Positions 2,549-62,904 of a DNA stretch of 64,000 nt are shown one piece after another. Under the pieces are notes generated by a model. The model saw nothing but the letters and a program-made list of their open reading frames with translations, did not search any database and was not told the DNA's origin. Positions within the stretch are counted from its first letter, which is position 1. Each line of letters opens with the position of its first letter. The translations under genes and the position numbers were made by a program. This stretch comes from Octopus vulgaris. Its lineage: Eukaryota. The stretch is from contig OX597822.1 of NCBI GenBank assembly GCA_951406725.2, positions 13,950,001-14,014,000 on the forward strand. The letters run 5' to 3'.

Positions 2549-3067
2549 TATGAACAGCAGTACCGACATCATCATCTGCATTAGCACATGAAACTCCTCT
2601 ACCAATATCTATTACATCACCGTAAAGTACACCACAGACATCGGCGCTACCGCTACAACCAAAACCTCGCCGCCACCACTACAAGAATACTTTCAGCATG
2701 CTGTAGCATCACTATCACCACCAATACCACCACCATTACCACTATGGTTTTGCATCAATATCACTTACCACAAGTATCGCTTCTTCCATCATCATCATCG
2801 TCGTCGTCACCACAAGCCACCCCCACCGCCAACACCAACAACAACAGCAACAACATCAACAACACCAGCACCATTCAGTTTTAGCTTGTCTGTATTTATA
2901 AAAACAGTAAAGAGACACCTTGGCTTTCCTGTCTCTTATCTTTGAATCTCATGCGAGAGAGAGAGAGAGAGAGAGCTGTAAAGAAGGGAGGGTTTTTTAT
3001 TTTCGGGAGGAAGGATTAAACAAATACAAGAAACGCTGTGATGCTTTGATGGAATACCCAGACATCA

Positions 3068-3330
3068 CATGGCTGTGTAGTTAAGAACCTCGCTTTGCAA
3101 CCATGTGATTTCGAGTTCGGTTCCACTGCGAGGCACCTCAGACAAGTATTTTCTACTACATTCCTGAGTTTGACCGACTTGAGAATGGATTTGGTAAACG
3201 GAAACTGTGTGGAATTCCGTCGTATTTTTACATATGTATGTATGTGTGCGTGTGTCTGTTTTTGTAGTTTCCCCCCATCCAAGTTCTTGAGAACCGGTGT
3301 TGGTTTGTTTACATCGCAGAAAATTAGCGG
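3068..3330 (+). mobile_element. tRNA-derived SINE family 2, 3' truncated
   Basis: A-box-like TGGCTGTGTAGTTAAG and B-box-like GAGTTCGGTTCC. Homologous to 15830-16255, 28165-28320, 34925-35285 and 53260-53410. Confidence 0.75.
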
Positions 3331-3621
3331 AACCTATTGAAATCTGTCTCGTTTTATGACTACGAAGATGACTCATGAGTCCACCTTTACTGAGGCATGG
3401 TCTTGCACAGACATTGCATGTCAGAATCAAAGGAAGACCCTTCCCTTCTGGAAGTTTGACAGCGATTCCCTTCCTGACATCCCTCCTTACTTTCTCATGT
3501 GCAACTCGAGATTTCTCAAACGTGGCTGTCCCCTCATGCACAATCCTTCTCCACCTGCTACGATCAATAGCTATGCCTTCCCATGTGTCAGGAGAGATGC
3601 AAGCATCTCTTAAGGAAGCCT

Positions 3622-4698
3622 TCAGCAAGTCCTTATACCTCTTTTTTTTGGTTTATGCGGAGATCGTTCTCCTTTAGCTAACACCCCATAAAAGATTTGT
3701 TTTGGCATCATTGAATCCTTCATTCTGACCAGATGACCACTCCATCTGAGCCTTTGCTTTAACACAAGAGCTTCTATACTTACACACCGAGAGCCTTCGA
3801 GTATTTCAAGATCACTGATGCGGTCCTTCCACTTAATGCTATAGATCCGTCTGAGGCACATCTGATGGAAATGTTCCAGATGTTTAAGGTGGTATCGATA
3901 TGTGACCCACGTCTCGCAGGCATAGAGAAGAGAAGGGAGCACACATGCCTTGTACACCTTTATCTTTGTCTTTCTGCATATGTCTCGCCGACTCCAGAGG
4001 CGCTTTTCTAGCCTTCCGAAAGCAACACTTGCTTTCCTAATTCTATATGGAACTTCATCATCCACATTGCCATATCTATTAATAGTGCTTCCCAGGTAGA
4101 CAAACTGATCGACTACATCAAGTCGTTTACCATTCACATAGATATTTGGTACACTATACTGCTTACCAGGGGCAGGTTGATGCATGACAACAGTTTTCTT
4201 GAGATTGACTGTCAATCCTAAGGCAGTGCAAGCATCAGAGAATGCATTCAAAATGTGTTGCATATCAATCTCTGTGTGTGCTACTAGCTCACAATCATCA
4301 GCATACAAAAGGTCTCTTATGATAGAGGTAAATATCTTTGTTTTTGCAGCAAGGCGCTTGATATTAAATATGCTGCCAGAGGTTCGATAATGGACGTAAA
4401 CACCGTATCTGCAGTTTCTGAATGCAATACAGAACACCATCGCGAAATATATGAAAAATAGGGTCGGTGCCAGAATATCCCCCTGTTTCATTCCATTTTG
4501 TATTGAAATGAGCTCCGACATTTTCCCTCTAACATTCACCCTACCATTCATGTCTTCATGAAAAGACCTAACCAAAGCAAGGAAGTTTTCAGGACACCCA
4601 AGTTTCTGGAGGACTTTCCACAATGCTTTTCTATTGACGGTATCAAAGGCTTTTGTCAGATCGACAAAAACGTGATACAAATCCAGACCCTGTTCCAC
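3622..4698 (-). CDS. Reverse transcriptase core and thumb portion of the RTE ORF (358 aa fragment)
   Basis: ORF track shows DLTKAFD, QG..L.P, YADD and YLG motifs. Confidence 0.85.
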   Translation of the reverse strand: MEQGLDLYHVFVDLTKAFDTVNRKALWKVLQKLGCPENFLALVRSFHEDMNGRVNVRGKMSELISIQNGMKQGDILAPTLFFIYFAMVFCIAFRNCRYGVYVHYRTSGSIFNIKRLAAKTKIFTSIIRDLLYADDCELVAHTEIDMQHILNAFSDACTALGLTVNLKKTVVMHQPAPGKQYSVPNIYVNGKRLDVVDQFVYLGSTINRYGNVDDEVPYRIRKASVAFGRLEKRLWSRRDICRKTKIKVYKACVLPSLLYACETWVTYRYHLKHLEHFHQMCLRRIYSIKWKDRISDLEILEGSRCVSIEALVLKQRLRWSGHLVRMKDSMMPKQIFYGVLAKGERSPHKPKKRGIRTC

Positions 4699-5789
4699 AC
4701 ACTTCTCCTGAAGCTGTCAAGCTGAAAAGATCATATCAGCAGTGCCACGTCCCACACGAAAGCCAGATTGACTTTCTGGAAGAACACAATCTGCAATGTA
4801 TTTCAGCAGACGATCCAGAAGTATCCGGCATAAAACCTTTCCTACAGCAGACAGCAATGATACACCCCTATAATTACCACAATCATTCCTGTTTCCCTTT
4901 CCCTTATACAGGACCACCATTACTGCATCTCTCCAGTCCTCAGGTACAGATTCACTAGTCCATATCTTACCAAACAAAGAGTGAAGTTTCTGCAGAAGTT
5001 TCTCACCACCATGCTGTAACAACTCCGCATGTATGCCATCCATACCTGGAGACTTCCCATTATTCAACCTTGAGACAGCCATTGCAACTTCTTCCAACTT
5101 TGGTGGTTCTGCGAGTGCTGCCTTCACAGGTAATCCAGGGATGAGATTGAGAACATCCTCACTAACTACAGACTGCTGATTCAAAAGTTCATCAAAGTGT
5201 TCTTGCCACCTTTGCAGAATTCCTTGTGAATCACGAAGAGGTTCTTTACCATCCCTGCTTCGAATTGGTGTCATCAGGGAAGATGTCGGTCCATAAACTT
5301 CTCGCAAGAGACCATACAACAGCTTTGTGTTATTGGAATCTGATGCCGCCTGTATCTCGTCAGCCTTCTTACTCCACCACGTATCCCTCATCTGAGAGAG
5401 CTTTTGCCTCACACGTGATTTTACGTCCTTGAGTTCCCTATGCAGCACTTCCCTTTCCTGTGACTACTGACAAATAGCGTGACAAAGTACGTCTTTTATC
5501 AGCCAATAAATCATCTATATGTTCATCATTTTCTTTGAACCAATCTTGATGCTTTCTTTGTATCAATCCCAGAACTTTTTTGCCTATATCATAAACTGAC
5601 TTTTTAAGGGTCGGCCAATCCTCCCCAATATCTGCAGCATTCATTTCCTCTCGTAAAGTTCTCTTCACACTATTATACCTAAGACGATCAACATTCAGTC
5701 TTTTAGGCAGGGTCATCCCTGCAGCTCGGATTTTATGTTTTGTGACTAATTTCACTTTTGCACGTACTAGGCGGTGGCCAGTCCAACAC

Positions 5790-6296
5790 TCAGCTCCACG
5801 AAGAACACGAACACACTGCACATCCTTGTCTGTCACGCACCCTAACTAGGATGTAATCCAGAATATGCCATTCTTTAGATGTAGAGTGCATCCATGTAGT
5901 CTTAAACTTATTCTTTTGTTGAAACATGGTATTGGTAACACACAGACTCAACTCCTCACACATCTGAAGCAAAAGCATGCCATTACTATTACATTTCCCC
6001 ACCCCATGCTTTCCAATTACAGTCCATGTGTTAAAATCCCTACCCACTCTAGCATTAAAGTCACCCAGTACAATGACTTTGTCTGCCCGAGGGATATTTC
6101 TTATAATGCCCTTCAAAGCATGGTAGAAAGAAAGTTTTTCGTCATCAGTATAGCACATAGTTGGAGCATACACACTCACCAAGGTCATATAATTTCCTTT
6201 AGCCAAAGGAATTCTCATGGACATAAGACGCTCGTTAATTCCGATTGGGAATTCTTCCAACTTGTCCACAAGAGTAGTTTTAACAGCAAATGCCAC
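5790..6296 (-). CDS. APE-type endonuclease fragment of the RTE ORF
   Basis: ORF track shows SVYAPT, GDFNARVG and LDYILV motifs. Confidence 0.8.
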   Translation of the reverse strand: MAFAVKTTLVDKLEEFPIGINERLMSMRIPLAKGNYMTLVSVYAPTMCYTDDEKLSFYHALKGIIRNIPRADKVIVLGDFNARVGRDFNTWTVIGKHGVGKCNSNGMLLLQMCEELSLCVTNTMFQQKNKFKTTWMHSTSKEWHILDYILVRVRDRQGCAVCSCSSWS

Positions 6297-7852
6297 TCCA
6301 GCTTCTCCTCTAAGCTCTTCATCTCTCCCTTTCCAGAAGAATATATATTTTCCACAAGATTCTGTAAGATGACCATCTCCAGGTAATCTCGTCTCAGATA
6401 AAGCAATGATGTCAGATCATAGCATTGAAGCTCCTTCGCAACAAGCGCAGTCCTTCTTTCAGGACATTCAGAGGACTTGTGGTCAAGCAGTGTCCGTACA
6501 TTCCAACAGTCAATATTCATTATTTTCTTTGGTTCTATCACAGTAGCATGATGACGGCCGGGTTCAGATTGTGATGCTCTGGAGCCCCTGCCGGGCCAGA
6601 CTCTTTCAGCCGATGTGGTTCCAGATTCCTTTCTGCCATTTATTTTTATACTGTTTTGGTACATCATTGATTTTTGCTTTTTAAGGCTACAGTCAGCCAT
6701 TCAGCTGAGAGTCACAGCACTATCAACAGTCATGAATTAGTTAATCACTTTAATCAATCCAATGTAGTTATCATGCAATACCTGTGCGAAAAGATTTTTT
6801 TTAAAGTGAGGAAAGGCTGTGCACTGAGTCAATCCCACTCACTAAGCAACAGCAGCCATAATCCGAAAAGAAGAACAAGTCAACATCATCGGTAACCACT
6901 GAGCCGCAAGTTTTATGTCAGAGTTATCCCAGTTACCTTCTCCTAGAAGGTTGCCCTAACAAAGGCTAGGAGTCCTTCACTCACAATGGTTTAACCGCGC
7001 AATCGGGTATTCAGTCCGATTATTTCTATGTCCCCGCGCATGATACAGCCTTAAGCCTTAAGAAGAAGAAAAAAACACATTTATTGGATGGCCGTTGACT
7101 CTCAAGAGTTCCTCCGCCCTTTGACGGGTTTTGTTTTTCATCCCGCAGGGTGTCCAATAAACACCCTCCTCACCAAGCAAGCTTGGTGGGGTTACCGGTC
7201 TAGTCGCCGACAACCCGACCATGCAACAGGTTGTTCTGGGTTACATGTTACCAGTAGCACTCGAAAGTGACCTGCTATACAAAAAAATACAGTTAAATGT
7301 ACAAAAGATGTAAGGATACAATGGTTGGTGAAGAAGAAAGTATGATTTAAATTCGCTTTCTGCATATATTTGTGTGCGGTGCGTGCTGATATATAAAACT
7401 GTGTGTACGGGTTTTCGAGAAAAAACTGTGTGTATAATTTTTTCTAGAATTCTGTTTTTCCCTTCTTTGTATTTCAGATGGTTTTTCTTTAAATATGTCT
7501 TGTTACGTTTTCATTCAAAAGTTATTCAGATAATGATTTTATTTTATTTTATTCTTTTGTTCCGATCAAAAATCGCAGTTAATTTTTAAATTTCGTAAAA
7601 TCCATTATTTGCAATGTTTATAATTACTACATTCGCAAAAGATTCTTCCTGTTTAATATATTTCACTTTATACTTCCTCAAGTCAATACTCAGTCATTCA
7701 GAAAGACATTCAAGGCTTTTTTGAGTTTTATTTATAATAGCCTTCGCAGCTTTTCAGAAATTTCTTGGCGATTTTCTGTATATATTATAAAAATAGGATC
7801 ACATGCGGTCGTATCGTACAAGAGACACGGTCGCACGCGGTCATATTCTTAA

Positions 7853-8909: not shown

Positions 8910-9544
8910 ACACCCACATACGCATACACACACACGCATACACACGCACACATACACGCACACACAACTACACGCACATACGACACACACACACAAATGA
9001 ACCCACACATACATCCCATACACACGGCACACACTCATACATACACGCACACAATTATAGATATGTATACGCACATACAAACACACGCACACATACACAA
9101 AGTATAGCGCAGTTATTCGCCACACACACGAATACACGCATACACACACGAATACACGCATACACACACACACACACACACACTACAAACAAAACGCACA
9201 CACAATACATATGCATACACGCACACACACACATACTTCAAACTATCAGTACCTTTCATTGACCATTTTTCCACATGGGTGGTTTAGAGACAAGAGCCAC
9301 TCCTAATCCATTCTTCCTTGACCTTAAACAATACTAAGCCCTACCACACACATAGATTAACAGCCACAACCACACACACACACGCACATACACACGTGTT
9401 ATCATTGCACACATACACACACACGCACACGCAGACCTGCGCGCACGCACATATACACACTTACACACACACATACCTCCTCTTGCATTCTCCTATCTTT
9501 GAAAGAACTTTTTCTTCACCTATTCCCTTCCGGGAATGTTAAAG

Positions 9545-10310
9545 GTTAATATAGTATATTTCATATTATTATTATATTAAAAAGTTAAAGTTTGAAAAAT
9601 ATAGGAATACTCAAAAATTTTTTTATTTAAAGTATTTAAAAGTTCGAGTTGTGGAATGTATGCAAGATAATCCCAATTCCAGTTTTTCATAGATGACTAG
9701 AAAAACTTCACTGTAATCTTGAATTTGGAACTTTCCCTAAATCTAATCTAGTTTTAAAATTTAAAGCTATTCCCCCAGTTATAAAATACGATACCTACTA
9801 AAAATAAGTGATAGTTTTGTTTCCCTTACCCTTTGTAAAGAATTTAATGACCTCTCGACACTTGACCTAGTTTTCTTCTCACCACATAAAAAAATTGGCT
9901 TTTTGTTTAGTGACAACCTGAATTCTTTTATGGCATTCTGAATTCCTCCTCTTTCTACAACCAACTTGAATTCCTTTTATGGTATTCTAAAACCTTCCCT
10001 TACCCTCATTCCTAAAACTAAAAAATTCTTATAGCAGTCTGTTGCAAGCAGAGTTTTGGTCAGTCAGCATCTGAACTACACAACCGCATATGTCCCTAAA
10101 TTTATATCTACATCTTTATCTGTATATTTACCTTCCCTAAAATGTTACTACTTGATTTGAAAGCTTTTATATTATTGGAAAACCTATATAAATTGGCTGA
10201 AGAATACTCAGCATCTTAAATCTGCTGTAATATTTACAGCGTTTAATAAAATGTTGTAGTATGAAACAATTGTACCAAATGACCGGAATCATTCTTGTTG
10301 CTTATTTTTG
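9545..10310 (+). mobile_element. Decayed Penelope-like element 3' region ending at a (TA)n tract
   Basis: Terminal hammerhead and a tail shared with 11710-11900. Only a faint RT-like trace (FFIDD) upstream. Confidence 0.45.
10193..10278 (+). ncRNA. Hammerhead ribozyme, type I, canonical core, extended stem II
   Basis: TTGG-CTGAAGA-ATACTCAGCAT...GCTGTAA tat TTACAGC...ATGTTGTAGTAT-GAAAC-AATT-GTA-CCAA. Confidence 0.8.
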
Positions 10311-10321
10311 AGTATATATAT

Positions 10322-10506
10322 ACCGTTGTCGATTTTTTTCCTCTGTCTTCCCTTCTCGGGATCTTTCCTTCTCCTATGTTTCCGACGAAGAGCTCCGCTC
10401 GAAACGTTAAACCCTCCTTCTTCCCTTCTTTCCTGAGCGTCCAATAATACTATATTTGTTCCACGTCCTCGCGTTGTTGTGTTTTTTTGTGTTTTCTTGT
10501 TTGGAT

Positions 10507-10510
<4 letters not shown>
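10322..10510 (+). mobile_element. Penelope-related short element family A, hammerhead motif at 10378-10412
   Basis: GTTT-CCGACGA-A-GAGC tcc GCTC-GAAAC-GTT-AAAC. Four copies in the window, all next to (TA)n. Confidence 0.7.
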
Positions 10511-11704: not shown

Positions 11705-11743
11705 TACATAATCAAAATAAGCAACAAGGATATCCAAGGTAGT

Positions 11744-11829
11744 GTAGTACAATTGTTTCATGCTACTTCATTTTATTAAACCCTGTAAGTATTACATCAG
11801 TTTTAAAATGTCGAGCAATCTTCAGCCAC
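11744..11829 (-). ncRNA. Hammerhead ribozyme, type I, homolog of 10193-10278
   Basis: Minus strand GTGG-CTGAAGA-tTGCT...AGCAt-GAAAC-AATT-GTA-CTAC, with compensatory changes relative to the first copy. Confidence 0.75.
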
Positions 11830-11939
11830 CATATAATCACCCCATTTGATTTATATGGATAATACCATACAAAATTCTGGTGCCTTTAACTTAAGTACTA
11901 TATTCATCTCAATCTAAATTTTGCTGTACATATATACAT

Positions 11940-16292: not shown

Positions 16293-16500
16293 CAAAATGT
16301 GACCGCGTGTGTATCGTTGGCGATTTTCTTTCTCCGTCTTCCCTTCTTTTGACTTTTTCTATATTTCTGATGAAGAGCTCAGCTCGAAACGTGAAGCCCT
16401 CTTTCTTTTCTTTCCTTTCCTTTCCTGAACGCCCAGTAACACAGTATTTGTTCCACGTCCTCACGTTCTTGTATTTTTCTTGCTTGTTCTTGATTGGATT

Positions 16501-16503
<3 letters not shown>
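16291..16503 (+). mobile_element. Penelope-related short element family A
   Basis: CTGATGA-A-GAGC tca GCTC-GAAAC-GTG at 16367-16393, flanked by (TA)n on both sides. Confidence 0.7.
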
Positions 16504-16554
<51 letters not shown>

Positions 16555-16558
<4 letters not shown>

Positions 16559-29287: not shown

Positions 29288-29471
29288 GTGACCGCGTGTG
29301 TACCGTTGGCGATTTTTTCCCCTTCTCTGGATCTTTCCTTCTCCTATGTTTCCGACGAAGAGCTCCGCTCGAAACGTTAAGCCCTCCTTCTTTCCTGAGC
29401 GTCCAATAATACTATATTTGTTCCATGTCCTCGCGTTGTTGTGTTTTCTCTTTGTGTTTTCATGTTTGGAT

Positions 29472-29475
<4 letters not shown>
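29285..29475 (+). mobile_element. Penelope-related short element family A, hammerhead motif at 29348-29382
   Basis: Near-identical to 10322-10510 and embedded in (TA)n. Confidence 0.7.
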
Positions 29476-29508
<33 letters not shown>

Positions 29509-30046
29509 TTGCAGTGACACACACACGTATACATAAATATACTCACATACGCGTACCTATATATGCGCCTATATGTGCGCACATATATACTTACACACAC
29601 ATGTACTCACATGTTTGTGTGTATATGTATATCCATGATTTTCACAGTATTACCAATATATCTATGCATCAATCTCTCTATCTGCGTCTTCTTTTATATA
29701 GACACGCATATATATATACGCACACGCACACGCACACCCACGCGGACGCACGCATGTGTATGTGTGTGAAGTCTTGTATATTTTCTACGTTAAAAGCTCA
29801 TTAGCCTCTTGTCAACCACGCCACTCTCTTTCCCACAACCTCTCTCAGTGTTTCCACATACCCGATTTAATTACCCTTAATTACCACTATAATGTTACCA
29901 CCCAAATTATTCCAGCCAATTTTCTAAAAGCAGAAAAAAGCGAAAATTAGAAAGACAGGACGAAGGAAAATTACGAAAGCGAAAATTGCAAATAAACAAC
30001 AAAAATTAAAATAGTTACAACAACAACAACAATAGTAATAAAAATT

Positions 30047-38481: not shown

Positions 38482-39540
38482 TAGGGGGAGAATTCACAAA
38501 AAAAAAAGATGAAGAAGTGTGTGTAAACAACAAACAGATGTGTTAGTTTAACGCTCGGGAAGGGAAAAAGTCTTTAACGTTCCGAGCCTACGCTCTTCCA
38601 CAGAAAGAAACAAGGAGAGAAAATAAAGAATGTGTGGTGGCTAGCGATCTATCATGGTAAATGCAGAGCAGAGGGGTCACAGAGGAGAGCTAGGAAGAAG
38701 CGGAGATAATAAAGTAGTGGTGATCCCAAAACGAAGATGCGCGTGTGTGTGTACATATAAGAGAGCATGTATGTGCGTGTGGAAGAGGGTTGGTGACCTT
38801 GACGTGTGCTTGTATGCATGAGTAGGTGTGTAGACGATGGTGTGGCGCTGGGAAGTGGCCAGTGCTAGTGTGTGCGGGGTGGTGTGATGTCATGTGGTGT
38901 TGTGTAGTATGGTGTGGTGGTATGTGGTGTCGTGGTGTGTGGTGGTGTTGGGATATTTGGGAGGCGAGAGTGGGGAAGCAAAGATGGGGTGTGGGTTAGG
39001 TTGAGGGTGGGAGTAGAGGTGGGGTATGTGGGTTATGCTGAGGGTTGGGAAGAGGTGGGGTACGTGGGTTAGGCTGAGGGTGGTGGTAGAGGTTGGGTAT
39101 GTGGGAGTGGGAGTGGGTGTAAGGGATGGATAGGGAAGGTGGGGTTGGATTGTGTAGATTTGGGGTCACGAGGAAGGGAGAGGGGGAAGGGAGAAGATGG
39201 GTAGGAGTGAAGAGAAGAGAGAAGGAGAGTAGGGGTGAAGAGAAGCAGTAGGAGTCGGAGCAAGAGAGGAGAGGTGGGTAGTTGGAAGTAGATGTGAGAG
39301 GGAGAGAGGAGAGGGGAGGGTTAAATGAAGGGGAGAGGGGAGCTGAGCCCATGTGGTGCAAAGGAGCGAAGAGAGAAGATTAATCCCTGTTCACAGCAAA
39401 GACAATCCGAACACAGACAGCTGCTGCAAAGAGTGACCGATAGAGCGGAAATGGCGCGAGACCGGTGTCATTGCCGAGACGGATATCTCGGAGGTGTTCC
39501 GCGAACCGGTCAGCCAAGCGATGTCCCGTTTGCCCGATGA
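38482..39540 (-). mobile_element. Penelope-like retroelement 3' fragment: GIY-YIG endonuclease end, low-complexity UTR and terminal hammerhead variant
   Basis: Minus strand IGQTGHRLADRFAEHLRDIR..VSRHF...GHS...EQGLIFSLRSFAPHGL. Hammerhead-like motif at 38571-38608. Confidence 0.85.
39321..39538 (-). pseudogene. Decayed GIY-YIG endonuclease domain of a Penelope-like element
   Basis: (Y)IGQT.R.L..RF.EH signature, frameshifted. Confidence 0.8.
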
Positions 39541-44910: not shown

Positions 44911-45028
44911 CCCAGGTTTGAAATTTCCCCAAGACACCTGATGAAGGCTGGAGGGTATATTAGCCGAAACGTTGTGTTTACAACAAACAAGATGAGGACA
45001 AATATCCATCAAATGCAAATAATGTAAC
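44639..45028 (+). mobile_element. Composite insertion: inverted tail copy + tRNA-like head + (AAT)n + hammerhead tail, with 10-bp TSD, nested in a SINE
   Basis: ATGAGTACCA at 44629-44638 and 45029-45038, and the host SINE resumes after it. Head at 44781-44855, hammerhead at 44934-44977. Confidence 0.8.
44934..44977 (+). ncRNA. Minimal type I hammerhead ribozyme
   Basis: ACAC-CTGATGA-A-GGCTG gagggtatat TAGCC-GAAAC-GTT-GTGT. Stem III is palindromic (AACGTT). Confidence 0.75.
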
Positions 45029-49007: not shown

Positions 49008-49470
49008 AGATCAAAGTGACACTGGGGTAAAATATACGAAGCCCAGTATACTCATCATGACTACCCGTCTGATAAGGGTAAACCAGGCACATGCATCACA
49101 ACCATATGTGCGCGACATGATGATCTCATATCAAGATAAACAGCACATGACCTTATAGGTGGGGCCCAGTTAGAATTTTCTTCTGGTCGAGTAACCCATC
49201 CTGCTCAAAAGGTCCCTGAATAAGGGTTGTTTAAGGATGTTGAACGAAACACCCATGTTTCCTGAGGTGAATTATTCAAGCCCCAAAGAATCCCTCTCAA
49301 CACATGGCTATGATACTCCCCCACTACTTCTGCTCGTGATCAGAGATGCACATATCATCAGCCACTAAGGGACATGCTCAACTGGTTACGGTCAAACAAC
49401 TGACAAGCAAATCTGTGATATTGAGCAGAATATTTGCTGTGGGCCATCTTTTATATCAAGACAAAACAAG
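49008..49470 (-). mobile_element. Unclassified interspersed repeat embedded in (TTA)n
   Basis: Sharp-edged complex block between two TTA/TTG tracts. No ORF recognised. Confidence 0.35.
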
Positions 49471-59960: not shown

Positions 59961-60128
59961 TTCAAAATGTAACCACATGTGAATCGTTGGCGATTTTCTT
60001 CCTCTGTCTTCTTTCTATTGGACTTACCTCTGTTTCCGAAGAAGAGCGTCTGCTCGAAACGTTAGACCATCTTTCTTTCCTTCCCTGAGCGTCTTCTAAT
60101 ACTTTACATGTACCACATCCACGCGTTG
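59961..60128 (+). mobile_element. Penelope-related short element family A, hammerhead motif at 60032-60067
   Basis: GTTT-CCGAAGA-A-GAGC gtct GCTC-GAAAC-GTT-AGAC. Confidence 0.65.
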
Positions 60129-62239: not shown

Positions 62240-62450
62240 AACGGGAAGCTTTATGAAAATAATCAAAAGACGAAGGCAGGTGGAGTACAAACAAACAATT
62301 GTATTAGTATGGCGCTCAGGAATATAAATAAAACAAGTCTTTTACGTTTCGAACCTACGCTCTTCAACAGAAAGATACACAGAAAAGAAACACGGAGAGA
62401 AACAAGGAGAGAAAAAAATGCGTGCAGAAACTAGCGAATCAACATGGCGA

Positions 62451-62451: not shown

Positions 62452-62499
<48 letters not shown>

Positions 62500-62502
62500 T
62501 CA

Positions 62503-62580
62503 GCGGTACATATGTTTCGGGCCTTTATTAGACGGTTTTATAACAATGCATAATGTGTGTCTTTGGCCTTCTTCAGCCGC
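62503..62580 (-). ncRNA. Hammerhead ribozyme, type I, canonical core, extended stem II
   Basis: Minus strand GCGG-CTGAAGA-aGGCC...AATAAA GGCCc-GAAAC-ATAT-GTA-CCGC. Confidence 0.8.
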
Positions 62581-62904
62581 ATACAATTACTACTTCAAGG
62601 GCATGTATTACATCATAAATTCTACGTTGGGGATGCGAATCCTCTCAGTCGCGTACGACAGAGTGGGGCACCAGCACAAAAACGAAGCGTCCTTCCCGTC
62701 TTTCACTCGATATAGAATTAGGAAGTTTGGATGTTGAGATAGAGAGGGAAGGGGTTGGGGGAGTTGAATCTTTAGTGAGTTGGGGATCACAAAGAGGGAG
62801 GGTGGTGGGTGCAAAAGGTAGTAAAAGAGTAAAAAATTACAAAAGAGTAAAAATTAAAAAAATATATAAAAAAATATAAGAATATAAAAAAGGTATCTTG
62901 CTCA

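What the first reader, a model, noticed from the sequence alone, without database searches (positions are those of the whole stretch)
10193..10278. Hammerheads with a poly(A) signal inside a long stem II, supported by covariation
Seen: three diverged motifs (10193+, 11744-, 62503-) share CUGAAGA, GAAAC-(AATT/ATAT)-GUA and a ~50-60 nt stem II domain. Stem I changes but stays paired (TTGG/CCAA, GTGG/CTAC, GCGG/CCGC), and stem II swaps TACT/AGTA for TGCT/AGCA. Each has AAUAAA in stem II, 17-24 nt upstream of the predicted cut, the usual spacing of a polyadenylation site. The first two also have a GU/U-rich tract downstream. Inference: ribozyme cleavage and CPSF cleavage/polyadenylation may compete or be coupled at one site to form the element's 3' end.
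Basis: partly seen in the sequence, partly recalled or inferred. Interest (0 to 1): 0.75.

Follow-up and report, generated by a model that had tools for sequence, protein, structure and literature searches.

The report
Poly(A) signal inside retrotransposon hammerhead ribozyme
These three motifs are predicted self-cutting RNAs (hammerheads) at the ends of a known kind of jumping gene with thousands of copies in this genome; they keep a six-letter word that is likely the element's poly(A) signal, which would make each RNA choose between becoming a message and cutting itself, but the DNA copies do not end at that site.

Summary
The three motifs are real type I hammerhead sequences (3 found; 0 in 200 shuffles). 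They lie in the terminal repeats of Hydra-clade Penelope-like retrotransposons, whose hammerheads are already published. Motifs 1 and 2 are one family (71/86 identical), so they are not independent. The 51-59 nt stem II is longer than in all 26 published Hydra rows. AATAAA is the best-conserved hexamer of stem II, with no compensatory change while the surrounding helices covary. In the clade, 4,513 matches carry AATAAA and 1,315 ATTAAA, against 6,224 in all. Lineage-level swaps go only to ATTAAA (twice), AGTAAA or TATAAA, so it is likely a poly(A) signal. The proposed coupling is weaker. An equally abundant sister family has the hexamer 3' of the cut. Only 3 of 23 families have it in stem II, which is chance level. 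0 of 82 family-A copies end within 15 nt of the cut; most end 27-58 or 125-159 nt beyond it, with no poly(A). RNA ends are untested. The scan has noted hammerhead plus AATAAA before in other genomes. Verdict: a new variant of a known system, with a testable switch like that of hepatitis delta virus.

The parts
9539..9682 (-). Inverted 5' piece of the family-A copy; encodes the last codons of the endonuclease (CxH motif, then stop)
   Evidence: blastn to L026 at 90%; translation of the window's minus strand
9685..10316 (+). 3' UTR / pseudo-LTR of a 5'-truncated Hydra-clade Penelope-like element (family A), followed by a TA run
   Evidence: blastn to 29 other loci and to L026; upstream of homologous copies lies an RT plus C-terminal GIY-YIG-type ORF
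10193..10278 (+). Type I hammerhead motif 1: stem I TTGG/CCAA, core CTGAAGA and GAAA, 59-nt stem II domain with an inner hairpin, palindromic stem III at 10266-10273, predicted cut after 10274
10245..10250 (+). AATAAA in the 3' arm of stem II, 24 nt before the predicted cut; likely poly(A) signal
10292..10310 (+). Conserved GU/U-rich tract: candidate downstream element for polyadenylation, or the first reverse-transcription start region
   Evidence: most columns 91-100% conserved over 34 cluster representatives; 49 of 82 copies end 27-58 nt after the cut
11708..11836 (-). Inverted family-A fragment holding hammerhead motif 2 (11829-11744), AATAAA at 11777-11772, predicted cut after 11748
   Evidence: 94.6% to L049
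11832..11946 (+). About 100-nt 'tail' of family A; in a full copy it is the 5' UTR between the upstream hammerhead and the ORF start
   Evidence: in L124 the ATG lies 211 nt after the upstream cut
62498..62891 (-). 5'-truncated family-B copy holding hammerhead motif 3 (62580-62503), AATAAA at 62529-62524, predicted cut after 62507; this copy stops about 9 nt after the cut at a TA run
   Evidence: endonuclease C-terminus about 2 kb upstream of the family-B hammerhead in L131

Best explanation
The motifs are type I hammerhead sequences with an unusually long stem II in the terminal repeats (pLTRs) of Hydra-clade Penelope-like retrotransposons, and the AATAAA they carry is likely the element's poly(A) signal, which would compete with ribozyme cleavage for the same RNA rather than define the end of the DNA copy. 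Shown: ribozyme anatomy, clade features, the same hammerhead and hexamer in both repeats of a near-full-length copy, sequence-level conservation of the hexamer, and DNA ends well downstream of the cut. Inferred mechanism: at the downstream repeat, CPSF/CstF would use AAUAAA and the GU/U tract to make the translatable mRNA. RNA that escapes polyadenylation keeps both hammerheads, which would cut as a dimer through the palindromic stem III to give a unit-length and possibly circular RNA, or stays uncut as a read-through template. The element's own reverse transcriptase would then start internally, about 37 or about 137-155 nt past the cut, which gives the two observed DNA ends. In families A and B the ribozyme cut would part AAUAAA from the GU/U tract, and in family A a CPSF cut 20-30 nt after the signal would fall within a few bases of stem I, so the two reactions would exclude each other.
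For: Hammerhead fold: 87.9% of cells paired, 15 of 29 pairs with two-sided changes, covariation 0.330 against 0.176 shuffled and at most 0.083 slid, on 35 rows. Clade: RWK, DKT, CxCX5C, no cysteine pair inside the GIY-YIG core, CxxC and CxH near the end, (TA)n targets, matching PMC8557442 section 11. L124 has identical hammerheads with AATAAA at 1735-1813 and 5934-6012 around the ORF. Hexamer: best-conserved of 54 six-base windows in stem II (24 of 34 cluster representatives; median 8.5). The 4 pairs touching it show 0 two-sided changes and 28 unpaired cells. Genome-wide 4,513 AATAAA and 1,315 ATTAAA against 6,224 clade matches. Two lineages reached ATTAAA by changes at different positions (listings; 11 of 11 copies of the second lineage). 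Family C has 49 AATAAA, 14 AGTAAA, 3 TATAAA and 1 other of 67. These are the four commonest human and mouse signals (PMC5983732 Table 1). Predicted opening energy is 0.7-1.5 kcal/mol in three of four contexts, so the word would be reachable. Internal RT starts explain PLE ends and tails in PMC11167929.
Against: No RNA end was mapped, and no poly(A) junction was seen. Across 23 long-stem families there is no strand-specific enrichment: in-stem 3 of 23 (shuffle 1.1, p=0.10; antisense 5); window -36..+40 gives 10 of 23 (shuffle 4.3, p=0.004) but also 10 of 23 antisense. High retention within a family is expected from recent descent alone. The clusters are related, and I oversampled one ATTAAA lineage on purpose. 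The next independent hexamer (TGTAAT, 18 of 34) is not far behind. The ranking of variants is from mammals and was compared after the fact. The hexamer is no more buried than the median six-base window nearby in three of four contexts, so structure does not explain how the upstream copy of the signal is ignored. For the lizard element PAc, ribozyme cleavage was not needed for insertion in vitro and no RNA-seq reads ended at the cut (PMC11167929). In family B a CPSF cut could fall beyond stem I and leave the ribozyme whole.
Confidence: 0.55

Rival explanations
1. The hexamer is an RNA structure or protein-binding element (a tertiary contact of the ribozyme, or a site for the element's own protein), not a poly(A) signal.
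For: It sits in a partly paired internal loop of a helix that covaries. Other loop positions are also invariant. The PAc ribozyme needs its protein to cleave (PMC11167929). In family C the word overlaps or abuts the 3' strand of stem I.
Against: The same word occurs in three structural settings: paired arm (A), bulge (B) and 3' of stem I (C). Lineage-level changes stay within the four commonest poly(A) hexamers. No compensatory change touches it.
Confidence: 0.18
2. The hexamer is inherited A/T-rich sequence under no special constraint; a few recently expanded families make it look conserved.
For: Motifs 1 and 2 are one family and motif 3 is related. Family-level counts match the antisense control. 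13 of 23 families have no AWTAAA within -36..+40.
Against: Subfamilies with a median identity of 0.70 keep it as the top window of 54. Two separate changes both end in ATTAAA.
Confidence: 0.12
3. The word works as DNA: a TATA-like core-promoter element of the pLTR, with transcription starting near or after the ribozyme cut.
For: PLE promoters lie in the pLTR, and a TATA box was proposed in a rotifer element (PMC3846280). TATAAA is among the variants. The ORF starts 211 nt after the upstream cut.
Against: ATTAAA and AGTAAA lineages fit poly(A) signals better than TATA boxes (TATA consensus recalled, from no call). The tested D. virilis promoter is TATA-less and starts at base 371 (PMC2377424), upstream of the hammerhead listed at 496 (PMC4209133 Table S1).
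Confidence: 0.1
4. One reading: ribozyme and CPSF act at one site to make the element's 3' end.
For: Spacing of 17-26 nt in families A and B. Motif 3 and one other family-B copy end 7-10 nt after the cut (2 of 38).
Against: 0 of 82 A copies and 0 of 67 C copies end within 15 nt of the cut; no A-runs of 8 or more in 187 copies. Family C has the opposite order.
Confidence: 0.05

Closest known systems
Hydra clade of Penelope-like elements and their hammerheads (Craig et al. 2021, PMC8557442; includes Hydra-1_Obim from an octopus)
   Same: C-terminal endonuclease ORF with RWK, DKT, CxCX5C, CxxC/CxH; (TA)n targets; type I hammerhead near the 3' end with palindromic stem III and often a U.U base of stem II, as in motif 2.
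   Different: All 26 published Hydra rows have a stem II domain of at most about 24 nt; here it is 51-59 nt with an inner hairpin and the hexamer inside. 'polyadenyl' does not occur in that paper's main text. ORF and element are longer here (4.2 kb between the two cuts in L124).
PLE hammerheads of metazoans (Cervera and de la Pena 2014, PMC4209133)
   Same: Type I motif in both pLTRs, short stem I, palindromic stem III implying dimers, proposed precursor cutting and circle formation. By eye, 9 of 56 rows of their Fig. S3 have AAUAAA just 3' of the cut and 1 (Culex) has it across loop II.
   Different: Their helix II is at most about 8 bp with a short loop; they label the flank only 'AU-rich' and propose no poly(A) role in the parts I read.
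Poseidon element PAc of Anolis (Frangieh et al. 2024, PMC11167929)
   Same: Two DNA ends downstream of the hammerhead, separated by a 'tail', explained by internal RT initiation.
   Different: Different clade; tail of 30-40 nt against about 100 nt here; ORF starts inside stem II there and 211 nt after the cut here.
Hepatitis delta virus antigenome: poly(A) site next to a ribozyme (PMC2396440)
   Same: Functional analogy: one RNA must either be polyadenylated as mRNA or self-cleave for replication.
   Different: HDV-type ribozyme with the poly(A) site 33 nt upstream of the cut and outside the ribozyme; here the hexamer is inside a hammerhead helix of a retrotransposon, and nothing is tested.
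Clec2 3'-UTR hammerhead (as reviewed in PMC6765202) and HIV-1 polyA hairpin (PMC2645353)
   Same: Family C has the Clec2 order (cut, then signal). As in retroviruses, the signal is repeated at both ends of the element.
   Different: Families A and B have the reverse order. Burial of the signal in a stable hairpin, as in HIV-1, was not supported by the opening-energy calculation.

Membership tests
Type I hammerhead ribozyme | Core CUGANGA, GAAA and NUH triplet with helices I-III in type I order | tested here: met
   0 hits in 200 shuffles
Type I hammerhead ribozyme | Covarying helices I, II and III | tested here: met
   two-sided changes in 3 of 4, 8 of 15, 3 of 7 and 1 of 3 pairs. RNAalifold alone recovered stem I, the inner hairpin and stem III but not the base of stem II
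Type I hammerhead ribozyme | Match to an Rfam hammerhead model | tested here: not met
   none at E<=10 in 10100-10480; none among the 150 of 338 rows shown. The long stem II is the likely reason (inference); this lowers only membership of an Rfam family
Type I hammerhead ribozyme | Self-cleavage at the predicted site | not testable with these tools
   needs a bench assay
PLE hammerhead (dimer type) | Palindromic short stem III and a copy in each pLTR | tested here: met
   8-nt palindromes; both repeats of L124
Penelope-like element, endonuclease-bearing | Single ORF, RT followed by GIY-YIG-type endonuclease; 5'-truncated, tandem and inverted copies with tail | tested here: met
   weak RVT_1 match E=5e-4, below the curated cut-off; no Pfam GIY-YIG match, so the endonuclease call rests on motifs
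Hydra clade of PLEs | RWK motif, DKG changed to DKT, CxCX5C linker, no CCHH in the core, CxxC and CxH flanking E and N, (TA)n targets | tested here: met
   family A. Family B: only the endonuclease end was seen. Family C has RWL, DKT, CxxC, CxH but lacks CxCX5C
Hydra clade of PLEs | Placement in an RT phylogeny | not tested
Neptune clade of PLEs | [quoted passage not shown] | tested here: not met
   one cysteine between the VIY and YIG-like motifs, and DKT; my first label, dropped
Metazoan polyadenylation site | A(A/U)UAAA with a GU/U-rich element downstream | tested here: met
Metazoan polyadenylation site | Poly(A) RNA ends 10-35 nt after the hexamer | tested here: inconclusive
   only assembled contigs of runs not on record as RNA were available; they cannot show ends
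Non-LTR retrozyme | Short non-coding head-to-tail tandem units | tested here: not met
   copies are dispersed 5'-truncated ends of ORF-bearing elements

The most novel reading that the evidence does not exclude
Hydra-clade retrotransposons have built their poly(A) signal into the ribozyme to make a two-way RNA switch. Ribozyme cleavage separates AAUAAA from its downstream element and sends the RNA to a unit-length or circular template; CPSF cleavage clips stem I and locks it as mRNA. The signal has moved from one side of the cut to the other between sister families while staying a functional hexamer. This would be a hepatitis-delta-like choice between message and replication template inside an animal retrotransposon.
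Probability: 0.25. Interest if true: 0.75.

Novelty: new variant of a known kind. Interest (0 to 1): 0.42.

Why it matters
The role of PLE hammerheads is described as unclear (PMC8557442), and none of the passages I read says how PLE RNA gets its 3' end. A poly(A)-type hexamer fixed next to or inside the ribozyme, with natural variants on both sides of the cut and thousands of copies, gives a direct handle: one reporter with two point mutations can tell whether message and template are chosen at this spot. The long-stem form matches about 21,000 places in this genome (20,984 against 169 for the reversed pattern) and is missing from the published Hydra table and from Rfam, so standard descriptors probably undercount these ribozymes. 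If the hexamer proves to be structural or incidental, the finding is an ordinary family variant.

Tried and rejected
Rfam: whole-window scan was swamped by microsatellite miRNA models (150 of 338 rows shown); the focused scan found no hammerhead. Protein search of the endonuclease region: 106 candidates, none at E<=0.001. PDB sequence search: one hit at E=0.83. Neptune label: rejected on motifs. HIV-like burial of the signal: not supported; opening energy 1.47, 4.50, 1.13 and 0.72 kcal/mol against local medians 1.71, 4.01, 1.49 and 1.82. Single-sequence folding z-scores were weak: -1.9, -1.5 and +1.5 for motifs 1-3. Sequencing runs: no RNA holder listed. Contigs of 4 runs only guessed to be RNA were laid on L010:1480-1900: 4 of the 32 pieces shown (228 in all) bridge the predicted cut with at least 31 letters on each side, and none of the 24 loose ends shown (55 in all) is a poly(A) run or lies at the cut; contigs cannot show ends, strand or level, so I draw nothing from this, nor from the higher depth over the tail. 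No DNA-run control or narrower look was obtained. The genome-wide pattern for family C's downstream hexamer (9,375 matches) has no matching denominator and counts some places twice, so it is not used. A general rule 'AAUAAA in long stem II' was rejected. PMC5785218 (dimer cleavage of PLE hammerheads) is not held. Look-ups of earlier findings by seven words and by sequence returned nothing.

Full report
1. Observation. The three motifs are present as described. Coordinates, spacings (24, 24 and 17 nt from AATAAA to the predicted cut) and the palindromic stem III were computed. The descriptor with a paired stem I found 3 in the window and 0 in 200 shuffled windows. Motifs 1 and 2 are 71/86 identical (family A). 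Motif 3 (family B) is more distant but alignable. A hammerhead-constrained fold costs 0.7, 1.4 and 0.2 kcal/mol over the free minimum for motifs 1-3.

2. What carries them. The window lies in a 2.8-Gb animal genome; earlier notes of this scan call it octopus-like (unchecked). The DNA search with 10020-10460 had 2,037 candidates and that with motif 3 had 963; 40 were scored each. Copies are 5'-truncated, often with an inverted partner, and end at (TA)n. Upstream of longer family-A copies lies an ORF with RT and a C-terminal endonuclease. The window itself holds the last codons of that ORF on the inverted piece 9539-9682. Locus L124 is near full length: hammerhead at 1735-1813, ATG at 2024, a frameshifted ORF ending at 4832, and an identical hammerhead at 5934-6012, both with AATAAA. 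The protein has RWK, DKT, a CxCX5C linker, no cysteine pair inside the endonuclease core, and CxxC and CxH near its end. These are the features given for the Hydra clade in PMC8557442 section 11. I first labelled it Neptune from recall and dropped that. Family B shows the same endonuclease end about 2 kb upstream in L131. No RT tree was built.

3. How common, and which families. The pattern CTGAWGA-N42-70-GAAACWNNWGTM has 20,984 matches against 169 for the reversed control. I fetched all 100 listed places (the first 12.5 Mb of contig C1). They collapsed to 95 distinct sequences in 23 clusters; none was dropped, although a few have no stem I and may be chance hits. Three clusters hold 61 of the 95: C (39), B (11) and A (11). 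Family C is also a PLE, with an 885-residue frame in L285 whose RT part is 48% identical to family A's, and it has 6,216 genome-wide matches.

4. Is the fold real? On 35 aligned rows (32 cluster representatives from loci, one more copy from L015 counted among the 34 clusters, and motifs 1 and 2), the structure I drew from the single-sequence folds gave 87.9% paired cells, 15 of 29 pairs with two-sided changes, and a covariation score of 0.330 against 0.176 shuffled and at most 0.083 when slid. The tool warns that relatedness inflates the shuffle comparison and that a structure derived from the sequences favours itself over slid versions. RNAalifold on its own recovered stem I, the inner hairpin and stem III but not the base of stem II. 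The U.U closure in motif 2 is common in published Hydra hammerheads and is reported as tolerated in PMC3088659.

5. Is the hexamer constrained? For. It is the top-ranked of 54 six-base windows in stem II: identical in 24 of 34 cluster representatives, median 8.5. The four pairs that touch it show no two-sided change, and the partner strand drifts. Genome-wide, 4,513 clade-A matches carry AATAAA and 1,315 carry ATTAAA in that slot, against 6,224 matches overall. The sum, 5,828 or 94%, is an upper bound, because a few copies fit both patterns and the gap ranges differ slightly. Two lineages carry ATTAAA through changes at different positions of the word (listings). The second has 66 exact matches to its own motif, and 11 of the 11 copies scored carry ATTAAA. 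Family B: 38 of 38 close copies have AATAAA, and 2 distant relatives have TATAAA. Family C: 49 AATAAA, 14 AGTAAA, 3 TATAAA, 1 other of 67. AAUAAA, AUUAAA, UAUAAA and AGUAAA are the four commonest signals in PMC5983732 Table 1. Against. Retention inside young families proves nothing. Clusters are related, and one lineage was oversampled. TGTAAT reaches 18 of 34. At family level there is no strand-specific enrichment: in-stem 3 of 23 (shuffle 1.1, p=0.10, antisense 5); wide window 10 of 23 (shuffle 4.3, p=0.004, antisense 10). I put the chance that it is a working poly(A) signal at about 0.6.

6. Does it form the element's end? No, at the DNA level. Of 82 family-A copies, 49 run into microsatellite 27-58 nt after the cut, 23 at 125-159 nt, 10 are unresolved or longer, and 0 stop within 15 nt. 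Family B: 2 of 38 within 15 nt (motif 3 is one), 20 at 16-75, 15 beyond 75, 1 unresolved. Family C: 0 of 67 within 15 nt, 30 unresolved. No copy of the 187 has an A-run of 8 or more within 60 nt. Two ends separated by a tail are what PMC11167929 traced to two internal RT start sites, on RNA that was not cut by the ribozyme. The template must therefore extend through the hexamer and the cut site. The spacing to the cut is also not fixed: the hexamer ends at -23 to -26 in A, -16 to -17 in B, and +9 to +14 in C.

7. Mechanism. Shown: anatomy, clade motifs, duplication in both repeats, hexamer conservation, DNA ends. From the literature: PLE hammerheads are weak alone and are thought to act as dimers, possibly making circles (PMC4209133); the PAc ribozyme needs its protein; cleavage usually falls 20-30 nt after the signal (PMC5983732). 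Inferred: the downstream repeat is polyadenylated to give mRNA; RNA that escapes is the template; in A and B the ribozyme cut would separate the signal from the GU/U tract, and in A a CPSF cut would land at about -4..+6, on stem I, so the reactions would exclude each other. In C the ribozyme would instead remove signal and tail, the order reviewed for Clec2 (PMC6765202). How the upstream copy of the signal is ignored is unexplained; burial in the helix was not supported.

8. What is known. PLE hammerheads, Hydra-clade hammerheads and an octopus Hydra element are published. In the 26 Hydra rows of File S2 the stem II domain is at most about 24 nt; by eye one row has AATAAA and two have ATTAAA directly at or 3' of the cut. 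In Fig. S3 of PMC4209133, by eye 9 of 56 rows have AAUAAA just 3' of the cut and one has it across loop II; the authors call the flank AU-rich. The closest functional precedent is the hepatitis delta antigenome (PMC2396440). Eight searches aimed at a poly(A) signal in or beside PLE hammerheads, or at octopus hammerheads, listed no paper on it; the library lacks most subscription papers. Earlier notes of this scan report hammerhead plus AATAAA in PLE fragments of two other genomes (unchecked).

9. What I read. PMC4209133: abstract, Results, Discussion, supplement file 2 parts 1-2 of 3 (file 1 could not be searched). PMC11167929: parts 1-2 of 4, and a word search of 3 supplement files with no hits. 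PMC8557442: abstract, passages, Introduction, section 11, supplement part 2 of 59. bioRxiv 10.64898/2026.07.22.740005: part 1 of 5 and passages; its supplements were not seen. PMC2396440: abstract and passages. PMC2645353: abstract. PMC6155905, PMC6765202, PMC3846280, PMC2377424, PMC5983732, PMC3088659, PMC7229834: passages only. Unread supplements could hold long-stem examples.

10. Verdict. Observation confirmed; interpretation partly supported. A new variant of a known system: long-stem Hydra-clade PLE hammerheads with a conserved, probably functional poly(A) hexamer, which does not set the end of the DNA copy. Interest 0.42; the switch reading has probability about 0.25 and would merit 0.75.

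Noticed in passing
window 10321-10510 (+); also 29301-29632, 16312-16556, 59985-60128: A separate short repeat with a minimal type I hammerhead (10378-10412, 29348-29382, 60032-60067) sits directly behind the family-A copy; the same neighbour occurs in L006, L020, L022 and L029. It has no AATAAA in stem II.
   Followed up: partly
window 44934-44977 (+): Another minimal hammerhead family (21-nt stem II), also in L067 and L107.
   Followed up: no
window 62265-62390 (-): Degenerate minimal-hammerhead-like repeat just downstream of motif 3, similar to 38504-38622.
   Followed up: no
window about 49250-49365 (-); L077, L107: A repeat family with CTGAYGA and GAAA about 90 nt apart and an imperfect stem I; may be a chance fit or a differently wired hammerhead such as other notes on this genome describe.
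   Followed up: no
window 3065-6416 (-): Broken LINE with endonuclease (PF03372) and RT (PF00078) pieces; unrelated to the hammerheads.
   Followed up: no
L101:2300-4600: Tandem array of about 355-360-bp units, each with a canonical short hammerhead, in two orientations: looks like a non-LTR retrozyme.
   Followed up: no
L192 (-), L081 (-): A family-C subgroup has gained AATAAA inside stem II, 27 nt before the cut, while its downstream word reads TATAAA or AGTAAA: a possible turnover of the signal from one side of the cut to the other.
   Followed up: partly
L285:3137-5791; L273: Family C lacks the CxCX5C linker said to go with (TA)n targeting, yet its copies still end at (TA)n.
   Followed up: partly
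L121-L130 ORFs: Long asparagine-rich inserts between RT and endonuclease, as reported for rotifer Penelope elements (PMC3846280).
   Followed up: no
L129:3-2177 (+): 725-residue frame that reads like a Helitron/PIF1 helicase (label recalled from motifs, no family search), overlapping the locus of a family-A relative.
   Followed up: no
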